Shown here in pieces: positions 1,101-44,801 of a stretch of DNA of 64,000 nt. The position numbers were made by a program, and so were the translations under genes. The first letter of the stretch is position 1. The number at the start of each line of letters is the position of its first letter. The notes beneath the pieces are model-generated. The model was given only the letters and a program-made list of their open reading frames with translations. It was not told the origin of the DNA and searched no databases. Origin of the DNA: Trypanosoma brucei (lineage: Eukaryota); contig CP000068.1 of the NCBI GenBank assembly GCA_000002445.1, positions 64,001 to 128,000 on the forward strand. Direction: 5' to 3'.

Positions 1101-1898
1101 TCATTTACCTATACCAGGTGTGCCAATAACAATATGTATCGGTGGTCTGTGAGCTGTCATTTCTACCCACCATGCTCTCAGCCTTTTTTCGACTTTATAC
1201 CACACGCGCATGATTTCACGACGGATATATACATGCTGAGATACTGCTTTGCGCCCCGTAGTGTAGTCCAATGCAAACCTGTTGTATGGCCAACCCTTCT
1301 CCGAAGTGAGAACAAAAATCTCCAAACCATTGGGTCTCTCCGGCACTTGTGCATCAACATTCGCAGGAAGAGGAGTTATATCCACCTCTTCTTCGGTCCA
1401 TATGCGCTGTGGTCTTCCGCAGAATACCTTCATTCCAAGTGGCTCTGCATCATAACCCGACATCACATAACTCCATTTCGCATCATAAATGGAATCGTAA
1501 GGACCTTCAACTTTGACATCACAAGCTGTTTGGGCAGCTCGTATCCTTGCTTCTTTGGCGGCCATCAATGCTGCATCCAGTTTTCCTCTCACTACGGGAC
1601 CAACAAATTCCCCGATTTGAGCAGTTGCATTCTCTTCCCATTGTTGCATGCCTCCAATTCCATTACGAGGCAGATAAATAACTGCCCTCAGTAATTGAAA
1701 CTCATCGATATCCCGTATTTCTTCAAGAATCCCTGTATAAACAACATATTCTTCCGGATCCATAACAAACTCAACCATTGACACGTTAGGGGTGCCTAGG
1801 GTTTCACCGATGTGTTGATTCAAAAATTCATGAAGTTTCATATCCTTCAAACCCGCATATTCTTCCAGCAACACATCTTTGACATTGCTTCCCAACAC
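1101..1898 (-). pseudogene. Truncated ORF (265 aa) ending ...HIVIGTPGIGK followed by a stop, immediately before the ingi 5' end. I interpret it as the N-terminal fragment of a retrotransposon hot spot (RHS)-family gene interrupted by the ingi insertion.
   Basis: The ORF terminates in the middle of a Walker-A (GxxGxGK[ST]) motif 29 bp from the ingi terminus. RHS genes are a trypanosome multigene family known for a P-loop motif and for a conserved retroelement insertion hot spot. I recognise only the architecture; I have not confirmed the family by alignment. Confidence 0.45.
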
Positions 1899-8588: not shown

Positions 8589-9551
8589 TCACATCTTTGT
8601 TTTGCGATGGGCATATGTTTCCGCGAAACGCTTCAGCAACCAATCCACAGCACGGACTGGTGGATATTTGGGGGGATTGCTTGGCGAATGGCAATGATCA
8701 AGGCATTTAATAACAGTATAAGGATTAGGCTCACAGAAAAATGGCATGGAGTAGCGATCAGTTGTGGTTAAGCGAACGCGATGCGGTGTTGAGCGGTAAC
8801 GGCCATTACTCCACATATTCATCATGTCCCCAATATTCACAACAAAACTTCCTTCAAGGGGTTCCACATCCACCCACTCATCTGACAGATTGCGCACCTG
8901 CAGTCCTCCCACCGAATCTTGGTAGAGTAATGTAATAATACCATAATCCGTATGCTCACCACACACGATGGGATAACGGGTCCCTTGCTTTTGTGGAGGA
9001 TAATGTAGCATACGGAACACACTCAAAGGTTCATCAAATTTGGTATCGAAAAAGTCTTTCTTTAAACCAATAGCGAGTGCGAGGGCACGAAGAATAACGA
9101 GGGCAAATTCCTGCATTTCGCGATAATGTCTGTTCATCAACTCTACCCAACCTTTCACTTGCGTGGGGTGATTGTTCGGTCCACGCAATGGCTTTCCAGC
9201 TGCAACATCGGGGTGATCCTCAGGGAGATGACAGCCCATATTAAATGTTTCTTTACAATCAAATGGTTTCGTTGGGTCAACATTCTCCGCATCGAGGCAT
9301 CCGTAACCGCGATGATGTTTGCTCTTTCGAATATCAACCTTAAGTTTCTCTTCCAATGGAAGCGAAAAAAAAGCCTTGGCCATTTCCATCAACTTTTCCG
9401 TTCGCTCACGGGGAATGGGATGACCCACAACAAGAAAAACACCCCACGTCCTACAGGCATGATCAATCTGTTTCGCAACATCCATCATCCCCTTTTCTCC
9501 ATCACAGAACAGAGGGCCGACATCAATAACTGGAATCGAGCCGTGAGCCAT
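8589..9551 (-). CDS. 2-oxoglutarate/Fe(II)-dependent dioxygenase family protein (isopenicillin-N-synthase-like / iron-ascorbate oxidoreductase-like), 320 aa
   Basis: The N-terminus MAHGSIPVIDVGPLF... resembles the characteristic 2OG-oxygenase N-terminal region. It has HxD...H-type iron-binding context (HTDYG...H) and an RxS-like 2OG-binding tail (NGRYRSTPHRV). The ORF is clean at 320 aa. Confidence 0.75.
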   Translation of the reverse strand: MAHGSIPVIDVGPLFCDGEKGMMDVAKQIDHACRTWGVFLVVGHPIPRERTEKLMEMAKAFFSLPLEEKLKVDIRKSKHHRGYGCLDAENVDPTKPFDCKETFNMGCHLPEDHPDVAAGKPLRGPNNHPTQVKGWVELMNRHYREMQEFALVILRALALAIGLKKDFFDTKFDEPLSVFRMLHYPPQKQGTRYPIVCGEHTDYGIITLLYQDSVGGLQVRNLSDEWVDVEPLEGSFVVNIGDMMNMWSNGRYRSTPHRVRLTTTDRYSMPFFCEPNPYTVIKCLDHCHSPSNPPKYPPVRAVDWLLKRFAETYAHRKTKM

Positions 9552-12125: not shown

Positions 12126-13349
12126 TTACATTTTCACGGAATGGTATGGATCCGCATGAACAGGCTGCGACAGTTTGGGCTGCGCAACGGCAGCTGCAGA
12201 AGCTTCCTCAGGGGCTGCCTTTCGCCGACTTCGTATTAAGAAGAACACCAACACAAGGATCAGTATTGCCACAATTGGGGCGAAAATATACAAGAGCAGT
12301 AACATTATCCATCTCCGTTTCTTAGCGAACAGAGTACGCGCCTCCTCCAGATCCTGAAGATCGGTATTATTCACTCCATCCTCGAGGGAAGACGACCGAT
12401 GACCGCCAGACATCTCAATCAAAACATCGAGTGTCCGATTACTTATCCGTTCCCCTTCACTAATAATTTCAGAATGATTTTTCTCCTCCTGCAACCCCTT
12501 GTGGATTTTGTATACCAGCAGCAGTTGATTTTCGCAGATGAGCATATCTTTGTAAGACTTGTCCAACTCCCCCACAATTCCTACTACGTGGGACTTCGTA
12601 TCGTTGTAATGCGTCCCCCACTGGTCTAGTGGTGTGCAAGGTGGTTCTCCAGCGGTGCTGCAGTTCACCACCTTTTTGGGTTTTGAAGTTGTCCAATTTG
12701 ACTCAGCCTCAACCATTAGGGTGGAAATCCATTTTTCTTTTTCGTCAAGTGTTACGTTGGTGCATGAAATTTCCCCCTCTGGAGGGTCCAATGTGCTTGA
12801 AACGACACCTTCTTCACACTTACGGCCTCCTCTACAGTATGAACTCATAACCTCCTTAAGCCCAACCACAGGGTTGCCTCCCTCAGATGCTTCCGTGCCT
12901 TCGAGTGTCTTTTTTCCCGACTCCTTCGCTTTAACAGCCTTTTCCTTTATCGAAGCTTCCCTAGTTGTGGCGTTTTCGGGCATGTCTTTGATTTTCGTCT
13001 TGGCTCCATCACACAACTCTTTTATGCGCTTCTTCGTTCCATCAGGGTCATCAGAGTCTTTCCCCAGCATGCCATCAATATCATCAACGTACGCATCCAC
13101 CAACTCAGCATCTCGAGTGATATTCGCCGTATCTTCGGCCGCCAGTTCTACAAGGCGATCCGCCAGTGGGTTCACTATGTTTTTGGTGAGGACTGTCATA
13201 GCACACAATACATCAGCAGCTGCTCTGCTAAGTTTGTCGTCAGCCTCATTCGTCTGAGTTTCCGATGCTCTTGCCTTCCCCACATGCGAAAACACTGAAG
13301 CTGAGGATGCGATCAATACAACCGCAAGGCAAAAGGTGACACGTGCCAT
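12126..13349 (-). CDS. Type-I membrane glycoprotein, 407 aa. It has a signal peptide (MARVTFCLAVVLIASSASVFS), a charged cysteine-containing ectodomain with at least 9 N-x-S/T sequons, one C-terminal transmembrane helix (IMLLLLYIFAPIVAILILVLVFFLI) and a 35-aa cytoplasmic tail. Family unassigned; the architecture is like trypanosome invariant or expression-site-associated surface proteins.
   Basis: A long clean ORF with recognisable signal peptide, transmembrane helix and basic stop-transfer (RSRRK). The composition is typical of trypanosome surface proteins. Confidence 0.6.
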   Translation of the reverse strand: MARVTFCLAVVLIASSASVFSHVGKARASETQTNEADDKLSRAAADVLCAMTVLTKNIVNPLADRLVELAAEDTANITRDAELVDAYVDDIDGMLGKDSDDPDGTKKRIKELCDGAKTKIKDMPENATTREASIKEKAVKAKESGKKTLEGTEASEGGNPVVGLKEVMSSYCRGGRKCEEGVVSSTLDPPEGEISCTNVTLDEKEKWISTLMVEAESNWTTSKPKKVVNCSTAGEPPCTPLDQWGTHYNDTKSHVVGIVGELDKSYKDMLICENQLLLVYKIHKGLQEEKNHSEIISEGERISNRTLDVLIEMSGGHRSSSLEDGVNNTDLQDLEEARTLFAKKRRWIMLLLLYIFAPIVAILILVLVFFLIRSRRKAAPEEASAAAVAQPKLSQPVHADPYHSVKM

Positions 13350-15856: not shown

Positions 15857-18800
15857 TCAATTAGCATCATTTTCCGTCATTCCGTTATTTACTTCCCGCC
15901 CACTGGACACCGGCACACGAGAACATTGCTTTGGGGAGGCGTCGGAAAGGTACGGATTGCAGGAAATGATGATGAGGGAAGAGCCACTTTGGGTAGTAAC
16001 ACCTGACGATGCGGACATCCCGCGGGCTCCGTGTTCCGCAATGTGTCCAACCTTCACTGCAATACGGCGAATAACTTCTTCACAATACGCATCGTCCCAC
16101 ACACGCCCCTTCCGCCGTGGTAAAGAAACATTCCAACGCTCGCAGTATGGAACCAATAGTCGCTCTCGCTGTGGAGCTTTGAAGGTACTGAGTAAGGAAT
16201 GCAGGGCATCTGAAATAGTTTGTGCCGATCCACTCAGCTCCATGTGGGTGGAACTATGTTCACTAGCAGAGGTACTAGTAGGGTCCTCACTCTCTTCGAA
16301 AGAGAAATCACGATCCAAGCGGAGCCCAGCGAATGCACGGCCGGGAACGGCATTCAATTGGTACATTACAATAGGCTCAGGAACACCACGCAACGCAACA
16401 GGTCCAAGCGAGGTCGCATCAAGTTGGTCACGCTCCTCAGTGCTCAGTGACATGTACGCCGCATACGTCAGCAGCACTTGCCCACCATTTGTCACACTTT
16501 CTGTGCGCGCAGCCATGTTTGGTGTGCGTCCGTAGTAGTCGTATCCTTTTGTTACTTCATCATGTCGGATATCACATAACCCGGTGTGGATTCCGATTCT
16601 TACACGCAGCCCATTCCACAACTGGCGGTAAACCTCGGGATCCAGACGTGCACTTGGTGGAATATAGTGATCATCATCCTCAGCTTTCTGCATCTCGGAA
16701 TTGCGGTAGAAATCATCGAAAACAGTTGTCCCCCAACAGTGTTGCAGGAATGATCGCTGAATGTCACTCGCGAGTTCCACAGCGGTGGATGTACTGCGGC
16801 AGGCAATCATAAAGGAGTCCCCAACGGTCTTCACCTCGTAACAACCATACTGCATGATGAGTGAACGGATCATAGTGTGATGAGCCAACACGGCATCGGG
16901 CATCAGTTCCGGGTGAGTAGACCACTGCGCAGTGCTGCTTTCGATGTCCGTGAAGATGAGAGTTACAGGATCTGTTGGTTCCCTCGGTGCTCTGTTGTTG
17001 TCTCGAGAATTAAACACAAACAAGCACAGAAGCACACACAATGCAATAGCAAGTGCAACAAAGAAAACAGAACCAACAATTATACCGGCAAGTTGTGAAG
17101 GACTAAGGGAAGACCCATCCATTACAGCATACTCCAAAGATGGCGTCACGCCACGACTCAGTACAGGCACACGGGGGTCTAGTACCCGAGACATCGACCA
17201 CACAGAAATGTTTCCCGCCCCAAAATTAGTCTCGCAACGGTTAGCCGCCGTTACACGTCCCTTAACACACTCAACATCACTGTACGGTCCGTAGTGCATG
17301 TCATCCACACGAATGTTTGATTCTGTGTAAAAAAAATCAACTAACAACGAGGGGCTTATCCTCTTCATGCGTGGAACGATGCTTCGAAGCAGACGCGCAG
17401 TGGCAAAGCCCCGCAACCTCAGCGGTGTCCATGTAGATTCACGGGGGTTGTAGGCATGAAACATTGCAACTGTATCCGATTCCGTATTTTTATCGGCCCA
17501 GTGTGGTAGATTCGTCGCGAACACAAGTCGTGAGGCGCTTACAACTGCCGCAGGGGTCGCATTAAATGCTTCCACAAACTCATCATACAATTGAGCGACT
17601 TCGGAGAAGAGAACATACACGCGTCTATCATTTCGAGATTGGAGATACTGTGCAATCGCATGGGCATCTGGAGGTGTGAGGCCGATGGCCACAACATCCC
17701 CACTGCTTGGTAGATGGTCCACCAGAGTGTCACTCTCTTTAAGTAACAACATTGACTTAAGTGCCACATCAAATGTCATTAGCGATTTGTTGAGTACATC
17801 ACCAATTACTTCCGCCCTTTTACTTCGAATAGCGGCAGACACGGCACCGGTAGAGGCATTTGAGAGGTGCATAGCAATCACGTACAATTGTTGCCGAACC
17901 GTAGGCGAGAGCAGTAACACATTTCTACGGAACTTACCCACTATGGGGCTGGCCGCCAAAGGATTGATGAAGGTGACATTTGGAAGCCGGAGTGCATCCC
18001 TCGTCACTCCACCAAAGACAGCGGATACTATCCTGTTGTCCACCAATTGCGCGAGATCACCTGCCACTTCACTCAGCTTCCTCCTAAAGGGGTGAAAAAA
18101 GAGTCGATCATTCTCGAAACTGCCATCAGCGGGGACAGATGATGCACCTTCGTACCATCTCCTGGCGGAACGCTCGGTAATGTAACTATCCACAATCAGA
18201 ATGAAAACACCATATAGTGGGGCATACACCTTCACATTTGCACTCGAACACTGTGATACACCCCACATCAAGAAACCATTTATTACGGGGTACATACGAA
18301 ACCCATCCACGACTTCCTTCATGTAAACAGCGCTTCCACCCTGATTGCAGTTGCACATAGCACCCTGCATGGACGCAAACTCGCCGCACTCATTACCATA
18401 GTCACCCACGACAAGGTCATCTACAACGTAACGACGCTGGCGGTACAGAGAGTCCATAAAGGCCGTGCGGTCCGTCAACACATCAGTACTGTGTAGTGCC
18501 TGCGAAAGGATCTCACCAGTGAGCCATCCAGTCATCATCAGATCAGAAATGGCCTCGTCGGTACTAAAGTGTGGGGGTTTCGAAAAGCCACCCCATTCAC
18601 TATTGGATTTTAAATGGTTATCCATCTCCTCCCGAAACCGCCGGACAGACGCAAGGGTTAGTAAATTCGAAGGAGGAATTGTGCCCGTGATGATTAATTG
18701 ACCATCGTTCAGAGACACATTGGAAGCATACAAAGCGTCACGCCAAGTTCTTATTAGAGGGCCTTGTGATGTCGACGGAGCCAAAACATACATCTGTCTC

Positions 18801-19567
18801 GCCCGCTCATCCTTCACAATCCTCCCTATGAACCATTCGGTGGCGGGGTTGCGCACGGGGGCAAACAGGAGCACAGCCTGTGGACGTGTCTCAACAAACT
18901 GGTTCCATTCAGCTGCCAGGGCATCTTCATCTGCTCCAACTCCACCAGCTGCAGCAAATGCACCACAGAGTTCATGGCCCATCATGGATGATATATCCAG
19001 AGCGAATTCATACAATGCCTCACCGGATGGTGTTCCCTTCAAGTACGTTATTCCCACACGCGGGAGACCAAGGAAAACAACGGCATAACGGAAAAGTGCA
19101 AGTAACTCAGCATTCGGCTCCACACTTATGAAGTAAAGATGGGGATCCCACTCACGCACTTCAGTGGAGAAAGCGAGTGGGCCGAAACTAACTGCACCGT
19201 GTTTACTCAGCTCACCCTTCACCCACATAGTATTGGGTCCGCCAAAGGGACCAAATACAATCATCAGCTTGCCTTCGCTTTCCTTAACCACGGACTCGAA
19301 GAACTCAGCGACGGGAGTATCGTATGATGGTGGTCGAATGAAAGAAACCCTTGCCTTGGAGTTTGTTTTCCAACCGCGAGCTGTCAGGGATGCTTCAAAA
19401 CCAGCGTTAAGTGAATCCACCTCCACCTCCTGAACATCAGGGCTATACATCAGGGAGAGGACATTTATTGTTATATTGTCTTCAGCCCTTCCTGTAGTTG
19501 AGAAGGAAAGCAATAGAAATAGTAGCTGCAGAAGCGGTAGCGACAGCTTCGACAGCAGTGAGGTCAT
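15857..19567 (-). CDS. GRESAG4: Receptor-type adenylate cyclase, ESAG4/GRESAG4 family, copy 1 (1236 aa). It has a signal peptide, a large extracellular ligand-binding-like domain, a single transmembrane helix (LAGIIVGSVFFVALAIALCVLLCLFVF) and a cytosolic class-III cyclase catalytic domain (VTLIFTDIESSTAQW...YEVKTVGDSFMIACRS...).
   Basis: The catalytic-domain motifs (FTDIESST, KTVGDSFM) and overall architecture match the kinetoplastid receptor adenylate cyclases. Confidence 0.9.
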   Translation of the reverse strand: MTSLLSKLSLPLLQLLFLLLSFSTTGRAEDNITINVLSLMYSPDVQEVEVDSLNAGFEASLTARGWKTNSKARVSFIRPPSYDTPVAEFFESVVKESEGKLMIVFGPFGGPNTMWVKGELSKHGAVSFGPLAFSTEVREWDPHLYFISVEPNAELLALFRYAVVFLGLPRVGITYLKGTPSGEALYEFALDISSMMGHELCGAFAAAGGVGADEDALAAEWNQFVETRPQAVLLFAPVRNPATEWFIGRIVKDERARQMYVLAPSTSQGPLIRTWRDALYASNVSLNDGQLIITGTIPPSNLLTLASVRRFREEMDNHLKSNSEWGGFSKPPHFSTDEAISDLMMTGWLTGEILSQALHSTDVLTDRTAFMDSLYRQRRYVVDDLVVGDYGNECGEFASMQGAMCNCNQGGSAVYMKEVVDGFRMYPVINGFLMWGVSQCSSANVKVYAPLYGVFILIVDSYITERSARRWYEGASSVPADGSFENDRLFFHPFRRKLSEVAGDLAQLVDNRIVSAVFGGVTRDALRLPNVTFINPLAASPIVGKFRRNVLLLSPTVRQQLYVIAMHLSNASTGAVSAAIRSKRAEVIGDVLNKSLMTFDVALKSMLLLKESDTLVDHLPSSGDVVAIGLTPPDAHAIAQYLQSRNDRRVYVLFSEVAQLYDEFVEAFNATPAAVVSASRLVFATNLPHWADKNTESDTVAMFHAYNPRESTWTPLRLRGFATARLLRSIVPRMKRISPSLLVDFFYTESNIRVDDMHYGPYSDVECVKGRVTAANRCETNFGAGNISVWSMSRVLDPRVPVLSRGVTPSLEYAVMDGSSLSPSQLAGIIVGSVFFVALAIALCVLLCLFVFNSRDNNRAPREPTDPVTLIFTDIESSTAQWSTHPELMPDAVLAHHTMIRSLIMQYGCYEVKTVGDSFMIACRSTSTAVELASDIQRSFLQHCWGTTVFDDFYRNSEMQKAEDDDHYIPPSARLDPEVYRQLWNGLRVRIGIHTGLCDIRHDEVTKGYDYYGRTPNMAARTESVTNGGQVLLTYAAYMSLSTEERDQLDATSLGPVALRGVPEPIVMYQLNAVPGRAFAGLRLDRDFSFEESEDPTSTSASEHSSTHMELSGSAQTISDALHSLLSTFKAPQRERLLVPYCERWNVSLPRRKGRVWDDAYCEEVIRRIAVKVGHIAEHGARGMSASSGVTTQSGSSLIIISCNPYLSDASPKQCSRVPVSSGREVNNGMTENDAN

Positions 19568-21264: not shown

Positions 21265-24200
21265 TCAGGAAGCATAACGACCAACAAACGGCCCCACCTT
21301 CACTGCAATACGGCGAATAACTTCCTCACAATACGCATCGTCCCAAGCGTATGAACCACCCATTGGCAGGGGAACATTCCAACGCTCGCAATACAGTGCC
21401 AATAGTCGCTCTCGCTGTGGAGGTTTGAAGGTACTGAGTAAGGAATGCAGGGCATCTGAAATAGTTTGTGCCGATCCACTCAGCTTCAGGCTGTCAAAAC
21501 TTAAACTGTTCGAGGAAAAGCTGAAGTTCTCGACATCTTCATCAAAATAAAACCCACGATCCAAGCGGAGCCCAGTGAATGCACGGCCGGGAACGGCATT
21601 CAATTGGTACATTACAATAGGTTCAGGAACACCACGCAACGCAACAGGTCCAAGCGAGGTCGCATCAAGTTGGTCACGCTCCTCAGTGCTCAGTGACATG
21701 TACGCCGCATACGTCAGCAGCACTTGCCCACCATTTGTCACACTTTCTGTGCGCGCAGCCATGTTTGGTGTGCGTCCGTAGTAGTCGTATCCTTTTGTTA
21801 CTTCATCATGTCGGATATCACATAACCCGGTGTGGATTCCGATTCTTACACGCAGCCCATTCCACAACTGGCGGTAAACCTCGGGATCCAGACGTGCACT
21901 CGGTGGAATATAGTGATCATCATCCTCAGCTTTCTGCATCTCGGAATTGCGGTAGAAATCATCGAAAACAGTTGTCCCCCAACAGTGTTGCAGGAATGAT
22001 CGCTGAATGTCACTCGCGAGTTCCACAGCGGTGGATGTACTGCGGCAGGCAATCATAAAGGAGTCCCCAACGGTCTTCACCTCGTAACAACCATACTGCA
22101 TGATGAGTGAACGGATCATAGTGTGATGAGCCAACACGGCATCGGGCATCAGTTCCGGGTGAGTAGACCACTGCGCAGTGCTGCTTTCGATGTCCGTACA
22201 AACAATGGTTACAACGCCACATTCACCACCCCGTAGCATCTCAAACATTGGAACACACACTTCACTGTCGTTGATAAATGTAACTAGGTCACTTGACGAC
22301 TTGGGCACAGTATCCCGTTGTCCACGGACGCGCACAAACAAGCACAGAAGCACACACAATGCAATAGCAAGTGCAACAAAGAAAACAGAACCAACAATTA
22401 TACCGGCAAGTTGTGAAGGACTAAGGGAAGACTCATCCATTACAGCATACTCCAAAGATGGCGTCACACCCCGACTCAGTACAGGCACACGGGGGTCTAG
22501 TACCCGAGACATCGACCACACAGAAATGTTTCCCGCCCCAAAATTAGTCTCGCAACGGTTAGCCGCCGTTACACGTCCCTTAACACACTCAACATCACTG
22601 TACGGTCCGTAGTGCATGTCATCCACACGAATGTTTGATTCTGTGTAAAAAAAATCAACTAACAACGAGGGGCTTATCCTCTTCATGCGTGGAACGATGC
22701 TTCGAAGCAGACGCGCAGTGGCAAAGCCCCGCAACCTCAGCGGTGTCCATGTAGATTCACGGGGGTTGTAGGCATGAAACATTGCAACTGTATCCGATTC
22801 CGTATTTTTATCGGCCCAGTGTGGTAGATTCGTCGCGAACACAAGTCGTGAGGCGCTTACAACTGCCGCAGGGGTCGCATTAAATGCTTCCACAAACTCA
22901 TCATACAATTGAGCGACTTCGGAGAAGAGAACATACACGCGTCTATCATTTCGAGATTGGAGATACTGTGCAATCGCATGGGCATCTGGAGGTGTGAGGC
23001 CGATGGCCACAACATCCCCACTGCTTGGTAGATGGTCCACCAGAGTGTCACTCTCTTTAAGCAACAACATTGACTTAAGTGCCACATCAAATGTCATTAG
23101 CGATTTGTTGAGTACATCACCAATTACTTCCGCCCTTTTACTTCGAATAGCGGCAGACACGGCACCGGTAGAGGCATTTGAGAGGTGCATAGCAAGCACG
23201 TACAATTGTTGCCGAACCGTAGGCGAGAGCAGTAACACATTTCTATTGAAACGATTGATCCGAGGATAAAGCAGCAGTGGATCGACGAATACAGGGCCTG
23301 GAAGTTCCAGAATATCTTCATCAACAGCACCATAGATAATGACTATCTCCCTCATATTGAGCAAAGCCTCTAGAGCTATGACCCCCATCTGCGTGCTTAG
23401 TGGAAGCACATCAAAGTGTAAAATATCTTCTCCGAAATCATCACGAATGACAGGAGCTGAAGACACACCTTCGTACCATCTCTTGGCGGAACGATAAGAA
23501 AAGAAATAATCACTCAAGTGCATGACAAAACCACTCAATGGAATACTGATCTTCACGTCCCTACTCGAACACTGTGATGCACCCCAGGCTAGGAATCCTC
23601 TCTGAAGCGGCTCTATACGAAACCCATCCACGACTTCCTTCATGTAAACAGCGCTTCCACCCTGATTGCAGTTGCACATAGCACCCTGCATGGACGCAAA
23701 CTCGCCGCACTCATTACCATAGTCACCCACGACAAGGTCATCTACAACGTAACGACGCTGGCGGTACAGAGAGTCCATAAAGGCCGTGCGGTCCGTCAAC
23801 ACATCAGTACTGTGTAGTGCCTGCGAAAGGATCTCACCAGTGAGCCATCCAGTCATCATCAGATCAGAAATAGCCTCGTCGGTACTAAAGTGTGGGGGTT
23901 TCGAAAAGCCACCCCATTCACTATTGGATTTTAAATGGTTATCCATCTCCTCCCGAAACCGCCGGACAGACGCAAGGGTTAGTAAATTCGAAGGAGGAAT
24001 TGTGCCCGTGATGATTAATTGACCATCGTTCAGAGACACATTGGAAGCATACAAAGCGTCACGCCAAGTTCTTATTAGAGGGCCTTGTGATGTCGACGGA
24101 GCCAAAACATACATCTGTCTCGTCCGCTCATCCTTCACAATCCTCCCTATGAACCATTCGGTGGCGGGGTTGCGCACGGGGGCAAACAGGAGCACAGCCT

Positions 24201-24888
24201 GTGGACGTGTCTCAACAAACTGGTTCCATTCAGCTGCCAGGGCATCTTCATCTGCTCCAACTCCACCAGCTGCAGCAAATGCACCACAGAGTTCATGGCC
24301 CATCATGGATGATATCTCCAGAGCGAATTCATACAATGCCTCACCGGATGGTGTTCCCTTCAAGTACGTTATTCCCACACGCGGGAGACCAAGGAAAACA
24401 ACGGCATAACGGAAAAGTGCAAGTAACTCAGCATTCGGCTCCACACTTATGAAGTAAAGATGGGGATCCCACTCACGCACTTCAGTGGAGAAAGCGAGTG
24501 GGCCGAAACTAACTGCACCGTGTTTACTCAGCTCACCCTTCACCCACATAGTATTGGGTCCGCCAAAGGGACCAAATACAATCATCAGCTTGCCTTCGCT
24601 TTCCTTAACCACGGACTCGAAGAACTCAGCGACGGGAGTATCGTATGATGGTGGTCGAATGAAAGAAACCCTTGCCTTGGAGTTTGTTTTCCAACCGCGA
24701 GCTGTCAGGGATGCGTCAAAACCAGCGTTAAGTGAATCCACCTCCACCTCCTGAACATCAGGGCTATACATCAGGGAGAGGACATTTATTGTTGTATTGT
24801 CTTCAGCCCTTCCTGTAGTTGAGAAGGAAAGCAATAGAAATAGTAGCTGCAGAAGCGGTAGCGACAGCTTCGACAGCAGTGAGGTCAT
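21265..24888 (-). CDS. GRESAG4: Receptor-type adenylate cyclase, ESAG4/GRESAG4 family, copy 2 (1207 aa). It is a direct-repeat paralogue of copy 1 with three diverged blocks and a shorter, different C-terminal tail.
   Basis: The first ~420 aa are nearly identical to copy 1, and it has the same catalytic motifs. The flanking 5' sequence (24889-25073) duplicates 19568-19752. Confidence 0.9.
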   Translation of the reverse strand: MTSLLSKLSLPLLQLLFLLLSFSTTGRAEDNTTINVLSLMYSPDVQEVEVDSLNAGFDASLTARGWKTNSKARVSFIRPPSYDTPVAEFFESVVKESEGKLMIVFGPFGGPNTMWVKGELSKHGAVSFGPLAFSTEVREWDPHLYFISVEPNAELLALFRYAVVFLGLPRVGITYLKGTPSGEALYEFALEISSMMGHELCGAFAAAGGVGADEDALAAEWNQFVETRPQAVLLFAPVRNPATEWFIGRIVKDERTRQMYVLAPSTSQGPLIRTWRDALYASNVSLNDGQLIITGTIPPSNLLTLASVRRFREEMDNHLKSNSEWGGFSKPPHFSTDEAISDLMMTGWLTGEILSQALHSTDVLTDRTAFMDSLYRQRRYVVDDLVVGDYGNECGEFASMQGAMCNCNQGGSAVYMKEVVDGFRIEPLQRGFLAWGASQCSSRDVKISIPLSGFVMHLSDYFFSYRSAKRWYEGVSSAPVIRDDFGEDILHFDVLPLSTQMGVIALEALLNMREIVIIYGAVDEDILELPGPVFVDPLLLYPRINRFNRNVLLLSPTVRQQLYVLAMHLSNASTGAVSAAIRSKRAEVIGDVLNKSLMTFDVALKSMLLLKESDTLVDHLPSSGDVVAIGLTPPDAHAIAQYLQSRNDRRVYVLFSEVAQLYDEFVEAFNATPAAVVSASRLVFATNLPHWADKNTESDTVAMFHAYNPRESTWTPLRLRGFATARLLRSIVPRMKRISPSLLVDFFYTESNIRVDDMHYGPYSDVECVKGRVTAANRCETNFGAGNISVWSMSRVLDPRVPVLSRGVTPSLEYAVMDESSLSPSQLAGIIVGSVFFVALAIALCVLLCLFVRVRGQRDTVPKSSSDLVTFINDSEVCVPMFEMLRGGECGVVTIVCTDIESSTAQWSTHPELMPDAVLAHHTMIRSLIMQYGCYEVKTVGDSFMIACRSTSTAVELASDIQRSFLQHCWGTTVFDDFYRNSEMQKAEDDDHYIPPSARLDPEVYRQLWNGLRVRIGIHTGLCDIRHDEVTKGYDYYGRTPNMAARTESVTNGGQVLLTYAAYMSLSTEERDQLDATSLGPVALRGVPEPIVMYQLNAVPGRAFTGLRLDRGFYFDEDVENFSFSSNSLSFDSLKLSGSAQTISDALHSLLSTFKPPQRERLLALYCERWNVPLPMGGSYAWDDAYCEEVIRRIAVKVGPFVGRYAS

Positions 24889-33652: not shown

Positions 33653-35116
33653 ATGCCACGAAGATTTGCCTTTGCACGCTCAGCAACCCTGTGCGTTTTC
33701 ATACTGTTGTCTCTCCTCACGGAGGCATTCCCTGAGTATGTAGGTGGGAAGATTGGACAAACACCACCCAGTGATTTCCCTCCAGGAAACGTTAGGTTCG
33801 GCATAGACGATGCGGCAATCGCCCCGGTGGTGCCCCTAATCCTCAAAACACTGAAGAGCTTCATTGGAAGTGTCACAGTCCCTGAGCAAAGGTTACACGG
33901 AGTGAGTTTGGAAACGATGCAAGTGCAAGACATAAACATTGGAAATATGTCGCTACACATGAATAGTACGAACAGGGTTGATGTATCGGTATGGAACATG
34001 ACGGCTAATGTCCCAGAAACCAACTTCAGCTACAATCTGGTGTTTGTGTCGTGCAGTGGAACGGCGAAAACCGATGTTCGCAATGCCAACGTGTCGTTTG
34101 CAATGCGTTTGTCCATCGGAGTGGGTGGCATCCTCGATGTATCGGTGGAGGACATGGCAATCCAACTTTTAGACCTGGTCATTACACCTTCACTGAATGG
34201 TTGGTGCAAGTCTATGGATTTTGTTGTTGGGACCCTTATGAATATTTTTAAGCGAAGCATAGCGGATTATCTGCAGCAGTATGTGCCGGCTATGGTCCAG
34301 CCGATCGTAAGAGCAAAGACGGTGGACATACTTCAGAAACTTCCCATCTCATTTGTGAGCCCTCCAAACATCACGGACGGACGGATGGAACTTACGCTGG
34401 CCATTCACTCTGAAATACCAATAAACCGAACGACAAAGGCGGGGATGTTTACCGAAATTGGGGGCCCGCTCCCCGAGCGGGACATTTCCATGATCTGCTC
34501 CTTTGCAGCTGCAAATAATGTACTGCGCCTTCTTCATTTATTCGGTAACCAGAGTCTTCTGAATATGACAATTCCCATTCCAGGAATATACAATTCCTCT
34601 CTCGCGGAGTCGATATACCCCGATGTGGTCGAACTTTGTCCCAACTGTCCTTTAAAGTTTGTCACTGGATGGACAGCAGCGCCGTGGCTTGAGCCCGTAA
34701 GCGACAAAGCGTTTATCACAAATGCCCAAGGCCCTACCCTTTCCATGGATATGGTAATGGATGACAACACGTCGGTAACTGTGCTTGGTGCTCATCTAAA
34801 CGCGACCGCCAACGTGACTCATCTTTCCACCGACAACAGTGGCCGTATCACCATAAAGTTGGCCTCCGTGAATGCTGCGGTGGCACTATATGCTCCGTTG
34901 GGGCGAAAAATAAATTCAACATCACTCAATACAGATGTTCAGGTCTTATTGAATGAGATCGTGGTGCCGCTTGTTAATGCGCAAACGGGAGGATTCGCAC
35001 TTCCGTTCGATGTAACAGATCTTTTGCTGAAGGTGTCAAATGCCACCATCAGTGTGGGACTTAATGCGATGGAAGCATATCCGCTTATCGGCTCATGCAT
35101 TGATCGTATATGGTGA
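33653..35116 (+). CDS. Secreted N-glycosylated protein, 487 aa. It has a signal peptide (MPRRFAFARSATLCVFILLSLLTEAFP), at least 15 N-x-S/T sequons, and no transmembrane or obvious GPI signal. It may have a BPI/LBP/CETP-like (tubular lipid-binding) fold, but that is speculative.
   Basis: A long clean ORF preceded by a strong polypyrimidine tract and AG acceptors at 33440-33600. The alternating hydrophobic pattern (VSVWNMTANV...NLVFVSCSG...VSFAMRLSIGVGGILDVSVEDMAIQLLDLV) is reminiscent of BPI-fold beta strands. I made that fold assignment by eye only. Confidence 0.6.
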   Translation: MPRRFAFARSATLCVFILLSLLTEAFPEYVGGKIGQTPPSDFPPGNVRFGIDDAAIAPVVPLILKTLKSFIGSVTVPEQRLHGVSLETMQVQDINIGNMSLHMNSTNRVDVSVWNMTANVPETNFSYNLVFVSCSGTAKTDVRNANVSFAMRLSIGVGGILDVSVEDMAIQLLDLVITPSLNGWCKSMDFVVGTLMNIFKRSIADYLQQYVPAMVQPIVRAKTVDILQKLPISFVSPPNITDGRMELTLAIHSEIPINRTTKAGMFTEIGGPLPERDISMICSFAAANNVLRLLHLFGNQSLLNMTIPIPGIYNSSLAESIYPDVVELCPNCPLKFVTGWTAAPWLEPVSDKAFITNAQGPTLSMDMVMDDNTSVTVLGAHLNATANVTHLSTDNSGRITIKLASVNAAVALYAPLGRKINSTSLNTDVQVLLNEIVVPLVNAQTGGFALPFDVTDLLLKVSNATISVGLNAMEAYPLIGSCIDRIW

Positions 35117-40474: not shown

Positions 40475-42043
40475 TTAAATATCACTGTCGAAACCTGCTG
40501 CGGTCTTCGTATTTTTGCTTTTAGCATTAGCCTCCTCTATGTTTATATCATCCTTCACCTCAGCCTTCCTACGGCCCCTAATAACAAAGAACACAAGCAA
40601 CCCAAGCAACAGCAAAAGCAAAGGAATTAAAAATATTAACACTTTCGTTGTCCCAATCCAGCCACTCTTGGCCTCGCTGCCCTCATCATCATGGTCAGCG
40701 TTTACGTCGTCCTCTTCACCACTTTCTTTCGACTCCTCTTTCAATTCCTCAGCCAATTTTTCTACATCCTTCTTCAGTTTCTCTTCAGATTCCTCGGCGC
40801 CCTCCTTGTCCCACCGCGCAACTTCTGCATCTTCGGTGGCTTTGACGCGCTCCTCCTCCGCTTCCTCAAATGCCTTTCTCGAATCTTTCACCTGCTTTTC
40901 TGCAGCCTTTTCAGTTGCCTCAGCTTCCTCAACAGCCTCCAGCAACATCTTTTTCTTTTCTTCACTCACCGGCTGACCCGCCTCCTTTGCCTTCTCAGCC
41001 TTCTCAGCTTCCAAGCGCCTGGCCTCCGCCTGTTCCTCAGCAGCCACTCGTCTCGCCTCAGCCTCCTCCAAAGCCTTTCTCGCTTCCTCAGCAGCCTTCT
41101 CAGCAGCCTGGCGTTTCGCCTCCTCCTCCGCCGCCCGCGCCTCTGCTGCTTTTTTCCATTCCAGATACTGTGCAAGAGACTCCCTTCCAATCTGTTGAAA
41201 TCTCTGAGCATAGTGAGTCACCCCCAAGGAATTGCGGACTAGAGTTTCAAGTTTGAGTATCGCATACCTTGCTGCATCGTAGTCCCACCGCCAACTTTCA
41301 AGCAGCGTGCATGGTTTATCGGAGGAGGACGCACTTCTTGACGAATGGCCGCTGCTGCACTCAACAGCATCCCTTGCATCAGCCTTGGGCTTTGCTCGAT
41401 TCCATGCCTCGACTGCCCCCTCCATGTTGGAGAAGGTCACATCAGTTTTTGCAGCCGGAATAGACTTGTACTCGCAATATATAACGTATGCGCGAGCGTC
41501 ATCATGTCCAAAATTTCGATGATAGTCATGTTTATACGCACTGGGATCGCAGTTTGCGTTAGCCATATGGTCAAACGAATCACGGATTGCTTCCTTGTTT
41601 ATACAGTGCCATTTTAGCAACTCCTTGAGAACTTTGCTCGAGTTCGCTGCAGCCCTCTTCGCCTTCTCCCATGCCTCCTCAACGCTCCTTTTCGTTCGGT
41701 TCGCTACACGTTGGACACCACGCATCTGATCCAACATCTTTTGTCCCAGCGCCGCCCTCATATCATCATGCTCTGACACTTTCTGAAAAATTTCTCTCGC
41801 GACCTTCAAATATTTCCAGGATTGCCTCTCTAGAAAGTCTGCTCTATCAGCAACACCGTCAAGCAACTTTTTCATGGTACACAGTGTCAACACAGCTTCA
41901 CCATCAAGTTTCCGCCCATTTATTGTTACATACTGCTTATATGCGACAGGTAAGTTGCTTGCCTTGGACACATCGAGCGCACATATGCCGCAGAGGAGAA
42001 ATACTGTTGCAGTAGTGCGTAATGTAACAGGCATCGTTGACAT
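40475..42043 (-). CDS. ISG75: Invariant surface glycoprotein ISG75-type, copy A (522 aa). It has a signal peptide, a cysteine-containing variable ectodomain, an E/A/K/R-rich coiled-coil stalk, a transmembrane helix and a lysine-containing cytoplasmic tail (RGRRKAEVKDDINIEEANAKSKNTKTAAGFDSDI).
   Basis: I base the family call on length (~523 aa), type-I topology, the coiled-coil stalk and the Lys-containing tail, all of which match my recollection of ISG75. The gene occurs in a multicopy array. Confidence 0.8.
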   Translation of the reverse strand: MSTMPVTLRTTATVFLLCGICALDVSKASNLPVAYKQYVTINGRKLDGEAVLTLCTMKKLLDGVADRADFLERQSWKYLKVAREIFQKVSEHDDMRAALGQKMLDQMRGVQRVANRTKRSVEEAWEKAKRAAANSSKVLKELLKWHCINKEAIRDSFDHMANANCDPSAYKHDYHRNFGHDDARAYVIYCEYKSIPAAKTDVTFSNMEGAVEAWNRAKPKADARDAVECSSGHSSRSASSSDKPCTLLESWRWDYDAARYAILKLETLVRNSLGVTHYAQRFQQIGRESLAQYLEWKKAAEARAAEEEAKRQAAEKAAEEARKALEEAEARRVAAEEQAEARRLEAEKAEKAKEAGQPVSEEKKKMLLEAVEEAEATEKAAEKQVKDSRKAFEEAEEERVKATEDAEVARWDKEGAEESEEKLKKDVEKLAEELKEESKESGEEDDVNADHDDEGSEAKSGWIGTTKVLIFLIPLLLLLLGLLVFFVIRGRRKAEVKDDINIEEANAKSKNTKTAAGFDSDI

Positions 42044-42633
42044 CCGTTAAAACTTATCTGTCACCCTCCTCTGATCACCACTTCCTCAGCTTGTCAGTCT
42101 CAACCTCACGTTACCTTGGCCGTAGAAATATGCAATCAACTACAGTCAAATATCCAAGAGAAAATAAGAAAGGGAAGGGAATCGATAGAAACGACCAAAG
42201 AGTAAAAATATGCGCGATTGAGCAAAGGAAATAATATGCGTATCCAATAGCGGATTTGTTGCAGTTCACCCGAACATGGACAACCTCCACGGCAGTCTTT
42301 CATTACACCCTTCATAGTAGCGCAAGGAATGTATGAATACCCTTAACACATGAAATAAGCAATACGTATGAAAAAAGGCATCAGCACTGGTATCCGCAGC
42401 TACCAATGCGGCCCTACCTCAAACCGGTAGTATGTGGGAAAAGGGTAATAACCTTGAGATGAGCTGCAAGGAACTGGTCAGACCGAAACATTACAAGCAA
42501 CGGTATAAAAAGCAAGAAACGAAAACATATAAAAAGCACCCTTATATCACTTATAGCAACCGATTTCAATTCCAAAATCATACACACAAATGCCTATACC
42601 TGTTCCTTCGTGTTCGGGCACCTGTGATAGTGT
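42044..42633 (-). repeat. Conserved ISG75 intergenic/5'-flank repeat (~590 bp) carrying the polypyrimidine tract and 5'UTR. Copies lie at 42044-42633, 44206-44801, 46374-46790, 48562-48850 (partial), 57149-57423 (partial, plus orientation) and 58993-59582 (plus orientation).
   Basis: The copies are near-identical. For example 42037-42240 vs 44199-44400 vs 46367-46570 vs 48561-48760 match the reverse complement of 57230-57430 and 59390-59590. Confidence 0.85.
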
Positions 42634-44205: not shown

Positions 44206-44801
44206 CCGTTAAAACTTATCTGTCACCCTCCTCTGATCACCACTTCCTCAGCTTGTCAGTCTCAACCTCACGTTACCTTGGCCGTAGAAATATGCAATCA
44301 ACTACAGTCAAATATCCAAGAGAAAATAAGAAAGGGAAGGGAATCGATAGAAACGACCAAAGAGTAAAAATATGCGCAATTGAGCAAAGGAAATAATATG
44401 CGTATCCAATAGCGGATTTGTTGCAGTTCACCCGAACATGGACAACCTCCACGGCAGTCTTTCATTACACCCTTCATAGTAGCGCAAGGAATGTATGAAT
44501 ACCCTTAACACATGAAATAAGCAATACGTATGAAAAAAGGCATCAGCACTGGTATCCGCAGCTACCAATGCGGCCCTACCTCAAACCGGTAGTATGTGGG
44601 AAAAGGGTAATAACCTTGAGATGAGCTGCAAGGAACTGGTCAGACCGAAACATTACAAGCAACGGTATAAAAAGCAAGAAACGAAAACATATAAAAAGCA
44701 CCCTTATATCACTTATAGCAACCGATTTCAATTCCAGTTCCAAAATCATACACACAAATGCCTATGTCTGTTCCTTCGTGTTCGGGCACAAGAGAAGGTG
44801 G

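What the first reader, a model, noticed from the sequence alone, without database searches (positions are those of the whole stretch)
12126..13349. Unassigned 407-aa type-I surface glycoprotein adjacent to the adenylate-cyclase block
It has the architecture of a trypanosome invariant or expression-site-associated surface protein, but I cannot place it in ISG65/75, ESAG or another named family from the sequence. It sits in a region dominated by surface-protein families (GRESAG4, ISG75), so it is a candidate novel or little-studied surface antigen.
Basis: inference. Interest (0 to 1): 0.5.

Follow-up and report, generated by a model that had tools for sequence, protein, structure and literature searches.

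The report
Known trypanosome surface glycoprotein ISG43
This gene is not an unassigned novelty: it is Trypanosoma brucei Tb927.5.310, a divergent but clear member of the invariant surface glycoprotein (ISG65/75) family. Its sleeping-sickness-parasite counterpart has already been made and studied as "ISG43", though what it binds in the host is still unknown.

Summary
The ORF is real: window 12126..13349, minus strand, 407 aa. It has a signal peptide, one transmembrane helix, a 34-aa tail and 9 N-glycosylation sequons. It matches Tb927.5.310 (T. brucei TREU927, chromosome 5) exactly.

Pfam PF11727 (ISG65-75) hits at E = 7.5e-29, four times the gathering score. Solved ISG65 chains hit at E = 1.5e-9. 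An AlphaFold model built on a 15-sequence alignment finds ISG65 structures first (TM 0.74–0.78).

Public sources (UniProt; the TriTrypDB header quoted in PMC11732084's supplement) already name it "invariant surface glycoprotein". Its T. b. gambiense orthologue, Tbg972.5.200, was published as TbgISG43 with recombinant protein, HDX-MS and SAXS.

Expression evidence also exists:
- The mRNA is up-regulated in bloodstream forms in two studies.
- Surface-labelling proteomics recorded 311 spectra and 53% coverage.

It is a divergent subfamily (about 20% identical to ISG65) with a syntenic T. congolense counterpart. Unlike ISG75, its abundance is unchanged by Usp7 or SkpZ knockdown.

The ligand is unknown. 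The most likely role is a bloodstream-stage receptor for a host serum factor.

Verdict: already known, low interest.

The parts
12126..13349 (-). Complete CDS of Tb927.5.310 (407 aa plus stop), an ISG43-type invariant surface glycoprotein
   Evidence: ORF list and translation. Exact-sequence match to AAZ11146.1 / XP_844705.1 / UniProt Q57XH5.
13287..13349 (-). Signal peptide, aa 1-21
   Evidence: Hydrophobic N-terminus. The published recombinant ectodomain of the orthologue starts at aa 22 (PMC11065263).
12585..13283 (-). Match to Pfam PF11727 ISG65-75, aa 23-255
   Evidence: E = 7.5e-29, 101.3 bits against a gathering score of 25.1; profile positions 13-267 of 281.
12411..13226 (-). Folded ectodomain, aa 42-313. 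Three long helices (42-95, 105-150, 241-287) form the bundle. Low-confidence membrane-distal 'head' loops lie at about 151-240, including a short helix with W207. Short helices lie at 292-313.
   Evidence: AlphaFold2 with a 15-sequence alignment: pTM 0.65, helix blocks at pLDDT 78-96. Foldseek top hits are ISG65 structures 9a3g, 7pi6_A and 8ovb_C. Invariant C49, C172, C178, C196, C238, W219, P224, W244 and Y248 across the family.
12309..12410 (-). Membrane-proximal linker, aa 314-347. Part is low-confidence or disordered; aa 328-347 is predicted helical and runs into the transmembrane helix.
   Evidence: pLDDT below 50 at aa 317-326. HDX-MS and SAXS on the orthologue show a disordered C-terminal region with a helix at Val328-Arg348 in construct numbering, which is native 326-346 (PMC11065263).
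12231..12308 (-). Single transmembrane helix, about aa 348-373
   Evidence: Kyte-Doolittle 19-residue window up to 3.19, centred on aa 354-369.
12129..12230 (-). Cytoplasmic tail, aa 374-407, with lysines K377, K392 and K406
12168..12170 (-). Codon 394, TCG (Ser) here and TAG (stop) in T. b. gambiense. This one base accounts for the 407-aa versus 393-aa forms.
   Evidence: DNA alignment of the window with the T. b. gambiense locus L001.
12144..12155 (-). 'ADPY' motif (aa 399-402) inside the 14-aa tail extension, followed by YHSV (YxxPhi-like)
   Evidence: The same ADPY lies near the C-terminus of a T. congolense ISG-like gene next to the orthologue. Gapped BLAST aligns HADPYH with YADPYN. The chance of this 4-mer in a 30-aa tail is about 2e-4.

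Best explanation
The ORF is Tb927.5.310, the T. b. brucei copy of the protein published for T. b. gambiense as ISG43. It is a divergent member of the ISG65/ISG75 invariant surface glycoprotein superfamily.

Shown here or in published work:
- It is a type-I membrane glycoprotein.
- Its ectodomain is an ISG65-like three-helix bundle with disordered membrane-distal head loops.
- The ectodomain is joined to one transmembrane helix and a short lysine-containing tail by a partly disordered linker.
- Its mRNA is up-regulated in the mammalian bloodstream stage.
- The protein is abundant there and can be reached by a membrane-impermeant label on live cells.

Inferred: like its relative ISG65 (receptor for complement C3/C3b) and other trypanosome three-helix-bundle receptors, it most likely acts as a receptor for a host serum macromolecule. 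It would sit within the VSG coat, reach out through its flexible linker, and cycle between the surface/flagellar pocket and an internal endosomal pool. The ligand is unknown.

Its steady-state level is not controlled by the Usp7/SkpZ (TUSK) deubiquitinase pathway that controls ISG75, so its turnover rules differ.
For: Identity:
- Exact match to Tb927.5.310.
- The neighbouring genes have consecutive accessions AAZ11145-11155.

Family:
- PF11727 at E = 7.5e-29.
- ISG65 PDB chains at E = 1.5e-9 over aa 35-312.
- Family-invariant cysteines and aromatic residues.
- AF2 model with pTM 0.65.
- Foldseek: ISG65 takes ranks 1-4 (TMt 0.74-0.78 for the three experimental chains), followed by ISG75, HpHbR, GARP, VSG and the factor H receptor.

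Orthologue equals TbgISG43:
- The T. b. gambiense protein is 374/393 identical and syntenic.
- Four residue landmarks in PMC11065263 fit only a +2 construct offset.
- That paper reports a three-helix bundle, disordered head loops and a disordered C-terminal linker by HDX-MS, CD and SAXS.

Expression:
- Bloodstream/procyclic ratio of 3.3 by microarray, listed as 'ISG-like' (PMC2443814).
- Up-regulated in bloodstream T. b. gambiense (PMC2837033).
- 311 PSMs, 27 peptides, 53% coverage and a detected fluorescein tag; present in all 4 live-labelled samples at ISG65-like intensity and absent from unlabelled controls (PMC4587319 Table S1).

Receptor analogy:
- ISG65 binds C3/C3b (PMC9424271, PMC10140031).
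- The authors state that at least six further ISG families have unknown function.

Age of the subfamily: a T. congolense reciprocal best hit lies directly downstream of an adenylate cyclase, as in T. brucei.
Against: - No ligand has been found. The receptor role rests on analogy only.
- The protein is not in the high-confidence surface proteome list (TbBSP). Its signal in lysed-cell controls equals or exceeds that in live-labelled samples, so a large part may be internal.
- No microscopy localisation was found in the searchable literature.
- Abundance is unchanged on TbUsp7 RNAi (0.90 against 0.43 for ISG75) and on SkpZ RNAi (0.92, q = 0.999, against 0.49-0.56). The ubiquitin-dependent control described for ISG75 (and, via Usp7, ISG65) is therefore not evident.
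- A 2026 screen of 37 T. brucei surface proteins against complement components reported no new ISG binders, but its panel list could not be read.
Confidence: 0.6

Rival explanations
1. It is a second complement C3/C3b-binding receptor that works like ISG65.
For: Three of the five named TbgISG65 contact residues have identical counterparts: Tyr293 to Y280, Trp211 to W207 and Glu302 to E289. The predicted fold superposes on ISG65 bound to C3d/C3b.
Against: - Only about 20% identical to ISG65.
- Arg77 becomes L83 and Lys97 falls in a gap.
- The tyrosine is near-invariant across the family (His in two ISG65 variants), including the 'acidic phosphatase' paralogue, so it is probably structural.
- Residues flanking the conserved positions differ.
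- The complement screen in 10.64898/2026.08.17.745214 found only ISG65 as a validated C3 binder, though whether this protein was in the panel is unknown.
Confidence: 0.1
2. It is mainly an intracellular (endosomal or ER) ISG-like glycoprotein with a role in trafficking or quality control, rather than a surface receptor.
For: - Signal in lysed-cell ('Dead') controls is at least as high as in live-labelled samples, and the protein is absent from the 5x-enriched TbBSP list.
- It is insensitive to the Usp7/SkpZ pathway that regulates surface ISG75.
Against: - A fluorescein tag was detected on the protein, and it appeared in all four live-labelled samples and in no unlabelled control.
- ISG65, a proven surface protein, also gives signal in the Dead controls.
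- The SAXS-based model for the orthologue fits a surface protein embedded in the VSG coat.
Confidence: 0.2
3. It is an ecto-phosphatase like AcP115. That is a chromosome-5 ISG65-like type-I glycoprotein whose recombinant form was reported to dephosphorylate peptides and ATP.
For: - A paralogue found by HMMER carries the source name 'acidic phosphatase, putative' and is a strong PF11727 member.
- Tb927.5.630 is called 'ISG65-like' in PMC2443814 and 'AcP115 acidic phosphatase' in PMC4003530.
Against: - Only 25% identity to that paralogue.
- No phosphatase domain in Pfam for either protein.
- No catalytic motif is defined for AcP115, so nothing can be checked for conservation.
- I could not confirm that P0010 is the exact AcP115 sequence.
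Confidence: 0.05
4. It has no specific ligand and acts as an immunodominant decoy or a passive component of the coat.
For: - Disordered head loops are proposed as decoys in ISGs (PMC10140031 and PMC11065263).
- Ectodomain dN/dS between subspecies alleles is relaxed, at 0.71.
- The alleles and paralogues are mosaic.
Against: - The subfamily is retained, with synteny, since before the T. brucei / T. congolense split.
- dN/dS is below 1.
- The protein is abundant and stage-regulated.
Confidence: 0.08
5. One reading: a member of a new, unnamed surface-protein family.
For: - Low identity (about 20%) to ISG65 and no meaningful BLAST similarity to ISG75.
- The older GenBank name is 'hypothetical protein'.
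Against: PF11727 at four times the gathering score, PDB sequence hits, fold match, existing ISG annotation and the published ISG43 name.
Confidence: 0.01

Closest known systems
TbgISG43 (Tbg972.5.200), T. b. gambiense; Sulzen et al. 2024, PLoS Pathog, PMC11065263
   Same: Positional orthologue. It is 374/393 residues identical, with the same flanking genes (adenylate cyclase on one side, 2OG-Fe(II) oxygenase on the other) and the same cysteines. Eight of this protein's nine sequons are shared; N126 (NAT) is absent from the T. b. gambiense form. Recombinant ectodomain aa 22-349 was shown to have a three-helix bundle, disordered head loops and a disordered membrane-proximal region.
   Different: The T. 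b. gambiense protein stops at codon 394 (TAG instead of TCG), so it lacks the last 14 residues, including ADPYHSV and K406. There are 19 substitutions, clustered in helix 1 (aa 50-67) and at aa 85-86, 120-129, 216-217 and 257-264.
ISG65 (complement C3/C3b receptor; PDB 7PI6, 8OVB, 7ZGJ)
   Same: Same Pfam family, the same type-I topology, and the same predicted three-helix bundle with unresolved head loops and a flexible linker. Conserved cysteines, and conserved Y280, W207 and E289 counterparts of C3-contact residues.
   Different: - About 20% identity.
- 101 bits on PF11727, against about 327 bits for ISG65.
- A shorter membrane-proximal linker: about 35 residues between the last ectodomain helix and the TM, against 73 in ISG65.
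- No ligand known.
ISG75 (six family members in the same window, 40475-61151)
   Same: Same Pfam family and topology, and bloodstream-stage expression. Encoded 27 kb away on the same chromosome arm.
   Different: - No significant BLASTP similarity in the ectodomain (E = 0.02-5).
- ISG75 is about 115 residues longer.
- ISG75 drops to about 0.43-0.56 on Usp7 or SkpZ knockdown, while this protein stays at 0.90-0.92.
T. congolense IL3000 F9W783 (CCD13048.1, 423 aa, unnamed)
   Same: Reciprocal best hit within the compared set (BLASTP 2e-25, 26% identity over 366 aa). A similarly divergent PF11727 score (105 bits). Lies directly downstream of a receptor adenylate cyclase with an RHS gene further on, as in T. 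brucei.
   Different: It has a 30-residue insertion after the signal peptide and a different cytoplasmic tail without ADPY. It is followed by a second, weaker ISG-like gene that does carry ADPY.
Chromosome-5 'ISG65-like' / 'acidic phosphatase' paralogues (Q57VF0, Q57VE9; AcP115 = Tb927.5.630 in PMC4003530)
   Same: PF11727 members and type-I glycoproteins of 421-428 aa. The 'ISG65-like' genes on chromosome 5 listed in PMC2443814, including Tb927.5.630, are bloodstream-up-regulated.
   Different: 24-25% identity. They are core family members (324-337 bits). One of them is credited with in-vitro phosphatase activity, which has not been tested for this protein.

Membership tests
ISG65-75 superfamily (Pfam PF11727) | Significant match to the family profile, above the curated gathering score | tested here: met
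   E = 7.5e-29, 101.3 bits against 25.1, covering profile positions 13-267 of 281.
ISG65-75 superfamily (Pfam PF11727) | Type-I topology: N-terminal signal peptide, large ectodomain, one TM helix and a short cytoplasmic tail | tested here: met
   Hydropathy peaks at aa 10-15 and 354-369 only; 34-aa tail. No dedicated signal-peptide predictor was available.
ISG65-75 superfamily (Pfam PF11727) | Three-helix-bundle ectodomain with disordered membrane-distal loops | tested here: met
   AF2 with MSA: helices 42-95, 105-150 and 241-287 with block-mean pLDDT 78-96; loops 154-192 and 231-237 below 50. Foldseek ranks 1-4 are ISG65. Published HDX-MS on the orthologue agrees.
ISG65-75 superfamily (Pfam PF11727) | Conserved ectodomain cysteine framework | tested here: met
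   C49, C172, C178, C196 and C238 (plus C230 in the 15-sequence alignment) are invariant across ISG43, ISG65, the chromosome-5 paralogues and the T. congolense protein.
ISG65-75 superfamily (Pfam PF11727) | Bloodstream-stage expression | tested here: met
   From published data read here: bloodstream/procyclic ratio 3.3 and 3.2 (PMC2443814); up-regulated in T. b. gambiense bloodstream forms (PMC2837033); abundant peptides in bloodstream-form proteomes.
ISG65-75 superfamily (Pfam PF11727) | Presence at the cell surface or flagellar pocket | tested here: inconclusive
   Fluorescein-tagged and present in 4 of 4 live-labelled samples, but with equal or higher signal in lysed controls and not in the TbBSP list. 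No imaging data were found.
ISG65-75 superfamily (Pfam PF11727) | Abundance controlled through cytoplasmic-lysine ubiquitylation and the Usp7/TUSK deubiquitinase pathway (described for ISG65 and ISG75) | tested here: not met
   Tail lysines are present (K377, K392, K406). However, the ratio is 0.90 on Usp7 RNAi at 26 h and 0.92 on SkpZ RNAi, while ISG75 falls to 0.43-0.56. Ubiquitylation itself was not tested. This is a behavioural trait of ISG65/75, not a criterion for the Pfam family.
ISG65 sensu stricto (complement C3 receptor) | Close sequence relationship to ISG65 paralogues | tested here: not met
   18-21% identity to seven ISG65 cluster representatives; phmmer E = 2.2e-5 to TbgISG65.
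ISG65 sensu stricto (complement C3 receptor) | Conservation of C3/TED contact residues (Tyr293, Arg77, Trp211, Lys97, Glu302) | tested here: inconclusive
   Y280, W207 and E289 are conserved; Arg77 becomes L83 and Lys97 falls in a gap. The Tyr is near-invariant family-wide.
ISG65 sensu stricto (complement C3 receptor) | Binding to C3, C3b or C3d | not testable with these tools
   This needs SPR or pull-down. The panel of the 2026 complement screen could not be read.
ISG75 | Sequence similarity to ISG75 and a length of about 522 aa with a long helical C-terminal region | tested here: not met
   BLASTP E = 0.02-5 against the window's own ISG75 copies; 407 aa against 522-552 aa.
ESAG families (expression-site-associated genes) | Similarity to a named ESAG family, or location in a telomeric VSG expression site | tested here: not met
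   No ESAG family in the Pfam scan. The locus is a chromosome-internal array flanked by housekeeping-type and GRESAG4 genes. ESAG11, said to be ISG-related (PMC3605285), was not compared directly.
AcP115-type ecto-phosphatase | Phosphatase activity or a recognisable catalytic motif | not testable with these tools
   No phosphatase domain was detected in this protein or in the 'acidic phosphatase' paralogue. Activity needs an enzyme assay.

The most novel reading that the evidence does not exclude
The ISG43 subfamily is an old receptor lineage, predating the T. brucei / T. congolense split, for a still-unidentified host factor. Its trafficking does not depend on the Usp7/TUSK pathway used by ISG75. 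Instead it depends on a C-terminal tyrosine motif (ADPY-HSV), which a single TCG-to-TAG change has removed in T. b. gambiense and in the Tb927.5.309b copy. That would give natural long-tail and short-tail variants with different surface residence.
Probability: 0.12. Interest if true: 0.45.

Novelty: already known. Interest (0 to 1): 0.15.

Why it matters
ISG65 turned out to be a complement C3 receptor. The authors of that work say at least six further ISG families still have unknown functions and may also counter host immunity. This gene belongs to one of those families. It is abundant in bloodstream forms, so finding its ligand would matter for understanding immune evasion and for diagnostics or vaccine thinking. 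The scan finding itself adds nothing new, because the gene, its family, its stage-regulated expression and its orthologue's solution structure are already published. The small additions made here are:
- a probable T. congolense orthologue, although the T. b. gambiense orthologue's record is labelled 'T. brucei spp.-specific'
- the protein's insensitivity to Usp7/SkpZ knockdown
- the one-base tail-length polymorphism that removes a conserved ADPY motif

Tried and rejected
- **Word-indexed homologue search** with the single protein found only its own cluster and a T. equiperdum variant. A profile of six family members returned only ISG65 clusters, so neither widened the subfamily.
- **Exhaustive HMMER search** of 1.84 billion representatives gave just five hits.
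- **Single-sequence AlphaFold** was too poor to use (pLDDT 53) and was replaced by a 15-sequence alignment model.
- **Second copy in the window:** none found (tblastn). The paralogue Tb927.5.309b was not found in the window (tblastn); the v5.1 coordinates quoted in PMC4619645's supplement place it about 55 kb from Tb927.5.310.
- **Diversifying selection between T. b. brucei and T. b. gambiense alleles:** dN/dS is 0.53 overall and 0.71 in the ectodomain, so there is no positive selection signal.
- **Antisense ORF 12634-13257 (+), 207 aa:** no family hit, so it is treated as an artefact of the coding strand.
- **Ten other small ORFs** in the large gaps have no Pfam match.
- **RNA genes:** no Rfam or tRNA hits in the window.
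- **2026 complement screen:** I tried to learn whether the protein was in the panel, but the gene list is in a supplement that is not held.
- **AcP115:** I considered equating the 'acidic phosphatase, putative' paralogue (P0010) with it, but could not verify this. The published primer-encoded N-terminus (SSSDAQ) is not in P0010, so the link is stated only at the level of source names.
- **Regional conservation against the T. congolense orthologue** gave no decisive binding-site signal.
Full report
**1. Observation**

The window holds an ATG-to-stop ORF of 407 codons at exactly 12126..13349, on the minus strand. The plus-strand reading of the same coordinates is broken by many stops.

Hydropathy analysis gives:
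- a hydrophobic N-terminus at aa 1-21
- one strongly hydrophobic segment at about aa 348-373
- a 34-residue tail with three lysines
- nine NxS/T sequons and eight ectodomain cysteines

The description as a 407-aa type-I glycoprotein is therefore correct.

The stated context is also correct. Two receptor adenylate cyclases (GRESAG4) lie on the same strand at 15857-19567 and 21265-24888. Six ISG75-family genes lie at 40475-61151.

**2. Identity**

The protein is an exact match to Tb927.5.310 of T. brucei brucei TREU927, chromosome 5 (AAZ11146.1, XP_844705.1, UniProt Q57XH5). UniProt names it 'Invariant surface glycoprotein'. A TriTrypDB-derived header in a 2023 supplement gives 'invariant surface glycoprotein, putative'.

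The other large ORFs of the window carry the consecutive accessions AAZ11145-11155. In order they are an iron/ascorbate oxidoreductase, this gene, two GRESAG4 genes, an ESAG5-related gene and six ISG75-family genes.

**3. Family placement**

- Pfam ISG65-75 (PF11727) matches at E = 7.5e-29, 101.3 bits against a gathering score of 25.1, over aa 23-255.
- phmmer against all PDB chains finds three ISG65 entries at E = 1.5e-9 to 4.6e-8, aligned over aa 35-312.
- Alignments with ISG65, two chromosome-5 paralogues and a T. congolense protein show invariant C49, C172, C178, C196, C238, W219, P224, W244 and Y248.
- A single-sequence AlphaFold model was poor (pLDDT 53).
- With a 15-sequence alignment, pTM rose to 0.65. 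Three long helices (42-95, 105-150, 241-287) sit at block-mean pLDDT 78-96. Low-confidence loops lie at 154-192 and 231-237.
- Foldseek against the PDB puts ISG65 at ranks 1-4. The experimental chains 7pi6_A, 8ovb_C and 7pi6_C give a TM-score of 0.74-0.78 normalised to the target and an rmsd of about 4.5 A. ISG75, the haptoglobin-haemoglobin receptor, GARP, VSG and the factor H receptor follow.

**4. It is a divergent subfamily**

Identity to ISG65 is only about 20%. BLASTP against the window's own ISG75 copies is not significant.

On PF11727 this protein scores 101 bits. ISG65 and the chromosome-5 'ISG65-like' and 'acidic phosphatase' paralogues score 324-337 bits.

An exhaustive HMMER search of 1.84 billion representative proteins found five relatives:
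- its own cluster
- a T. congolense protein (F9W783, E = 9.6e-21)
- the two chromosome-5 paralogues
- ISG65

The T. congolense protein is the reciprocal best hit in the compared set and scores a similar 105 bits on PF11727. It lies directly downstream of an adenylate cyclase on the same strand, with an RHS gene further on. This mirrors the T. brucei order of adenylate cyclase, this gene, oxidoreductase, and then an RHS fragment at 1101-1898. The subfamily therefore probably predates the T. brucei / T. congolense split. That is at odds with the 'T. brucei spp.-specific protein' label carried by the T. b. gambiense orthologue's UniProt record.

**5. What is already published**

- Koumandou et al. 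2008 list Tb927.5.310 as 'ISG-like', with a bloodstream/procyclic ratio of 3.3 and 3.2. [quoted passage not shown]
- Veitch et al. 2010 found it up-regulated in T. b. gambiense bloodstream forms (PMC2837033).
- Sulzen et al. 2024 produced aa 22-349 of Tbg972.5.200 and named it TbgISG43. They reported an AlphaFold three-helix bundle consistent with ISG65, HDX-MS evidence for disordered head loops and a disordered C-terminal region, and SAXS ensembles ranging from compact to extended conformers (PMC11065263).

I checked that TbgISG43 is the orthologue in two ways. First, the T. b. gambiense cluster-mate (393 aa, 374/393 identical) sits between the same adenylate cyclase and oxidoreductase on chromosome 5. 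Second, the paper's landmarks Val25, Glu39, Val328 and Arg348 fit that sequence at one offset only, +2.

**6. Protein-level evidence**

In the surface-labelling proteomics of Gadelha et al. 2015 (Table S1), Tb927.5.310 has 311 PSMs, 27 peptides and 53.3% coverage, with a detected fluorescein tag. Its signals are:
- all four live-labelled samples: 2.5e-7 to 2.7e-6, similar to ISG65
- the three unlabelled controls: no signal
- the two lysed-cell controls: 7.3e-7 and 6.8e-6

It is not in the 5x-enriched 'TbBSP' list. The protein is therefore abundant and reachable from outside, but much of it may be internal. The same is known for ISG65 and ISG75.

Whole-cell SILAC data sets detect unique peptides for both Tb927.5.310 and its paralogue Tb927.5.309b.

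**7. Behaviour that differs from ISG75**

- TbUsp7 RNAi at 26 h leaves the protein at 0.90 +/- 0.01, while ISG75 falls to 0.43 (PMC4619645 S1).
- TbSkpZ RNAi leaves it at 0.92 (q = 0.999), while ISG75 falls to 0.49-0.56 (PMC11732084).

The deubiquitinase control described for ISG75 is not apparent here.

**8. Function**

No ligand is known.

ISG65 binds complement C3/C3b through the concave face of its bundle (PMC9424271, PMC10140031). The same authors note at least six further ISG families of unknown function.

I mapped the named TbgISG65 contact residues through the alignment:
- Tyr293 aligns with Y280, Trp211 with W207 and Glu302 with E289.
- Arg77 aligns with L83, and Lys97 falls in a gap.
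- The tyrosine is near-invariant across the family (His in two ISG65 variants), so it may be structural.

C3 binding is neither supported nor excluded.

A 2026 preprint screened 37 putative surface proteins, including ISGs found by iterative BLAST, against complement components. It validated only ISG65, the factor H receptor and Tb927.11.1470. The panel list is not available to me.

A paralogue is annotated 'acidic phosphatase', and AcP115 (Tb927.5.630) is called 'ISG65-like' elsewhere. No catalytic motif is defined, and identity is 25%.

My best-supported reading is a bloodstream-stage, ISG-type receptor for a host serum macromolecule that cycles between the surface and endosomes. The architecture and expression are shown. 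The receptor role is inferred by analogy.

**9. Variation**

The 407-aa and 393-aa forms differ by one base, TCG against TAG at codon 394 (window 12168-12170).

The extra 14 residues (SQPVHADPYHSVKM) contain ADPY followed by a YxxPhi-like YHSV. The same ADPY lies near the C-terminus of a second, weaker ISG-like gene next to the T. congolense orthologue. A gapped BLAST alignment runs through the TM helix and ends by aligning HADPYH with YADPYN. The chance expectation for that 4-mer in a 30-residue tail is about 2e-4. The long tail is therefore probably ancestral.

Between T. b. brucei and T. b. gambiense, dN/dS is 0.53 overall and 0.71 in the ectodomain. This indicates relaxed constraint, not clear positive selection.

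Tb927.5.309b differs mainly in the linker and TM module (aa about 286-372). A T. equiperdum entry carries both modules in tandem.

**10. Verdict**

Its central point is wrong, because the gene is readily placed in the ISG65/75 superfamily. It is already annotated as an ISG and has a published name (ISG43) for its orthologue. It is an already-known gene of unknown ligand, so interest is low.

Noticed in passing
window 12168-12170 and 12144-12155 (minus strand); L001:7180-7182; L002:12280-13515: A single-base difference, TCG here and TAG in T. b. gambiense, makes the tail 14 residues longer. Tb927.5.309b also ends at residue 393, but its DNA was not examined. The extension carries ADPY plus YHSV. 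ADPY also lies near the C-terminus of a T. congolense ISG-like gene next to the orthologue, which suggests a conserved cytoplasmic tyrosine motif that some T. brucei copies have lost.
   Followed up: partly
L002:4845-17918 (T. congolense contig CAEQ01000994.1): T. congolense has the gene order adenylate cyclase, ISG43-like gene (P0008), a second weak ISG-like type-I gene (411 aa; PF11727 below threshold at 15 bits), then RHS. This is partial synteny with the T. brucei window, and it contradicts the 'T. brucei spp.-specific' label on the T. b. gambiense orthologue's record.
   Followed up: partly
window 40475-48561 (-) and 57424-61151 (+): The ISG75 array is split. Three ISG75 copies of 522-523 aa and a divergent 552-aa ISG75-like gene (36% identical to the first copy) lie on the minus strand. 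After an ORF-poor gap of about 8.9 kb, two plus-strand copies follow; the one compared is only 65% identical to the first minus-strand copy. This looks like a divergent strand-switch region between two ISG75 subfamilies.
   Followed up: partly
window 33653-35116 (+): A 487-aa ORF with no Pfam match is annotated in public records as 'ESAG5-related protein' or 'ESAG protein, putative'. It lies on the opposite strand from the flanking adenylate cyclase and ISG75 genes.
   Followed up: partly
outside the window (Tb927_05_v5.1:131102-132283, as given in the PMC4619645 supplement): The paralogue Tb927.5.309b (393 aa, 87% identical) belongs to a parallel 'b' block: CAQ55508 oxygenase, CAQ55509 ISG43-like, CAQ55515 ISG75. 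It differs from Tb927.5.310 mainly in the linker and TM module (aa about 286-372). A T. equiperdum entry (440 aa) carries both modules in tandem, which points to recombination or assembly chimerism.
   Followed up: partly
window 1101-1898 (-): A 265-aa ORF carries only the RHS N-terminal domain and DUF7578. It is probably a retrotransposon-hot-spot gene fragment or pseudogene at the edge of the array.
   Followed up: no
window 12634-13257 (+): A 207-aa GTG-initiated ORF lies antisense to the ISG gene and has no family match. It is most likely a by-product of the coding strand's composition.
   Followed up: yes
window 8589-9551 (-): The downstream neighbour is a 2OG-Fe(II) / iron-ascorbate oxidoreductase family protein (AAZ11145; the gene immediately preceding Tb927.5.310). 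Its 90%-identity cluster also includes proteins with other accessions encoded on a different, 2.2-Mb T. brucei contig, so this gene is also part of a duplicated set.
   Followed up: no
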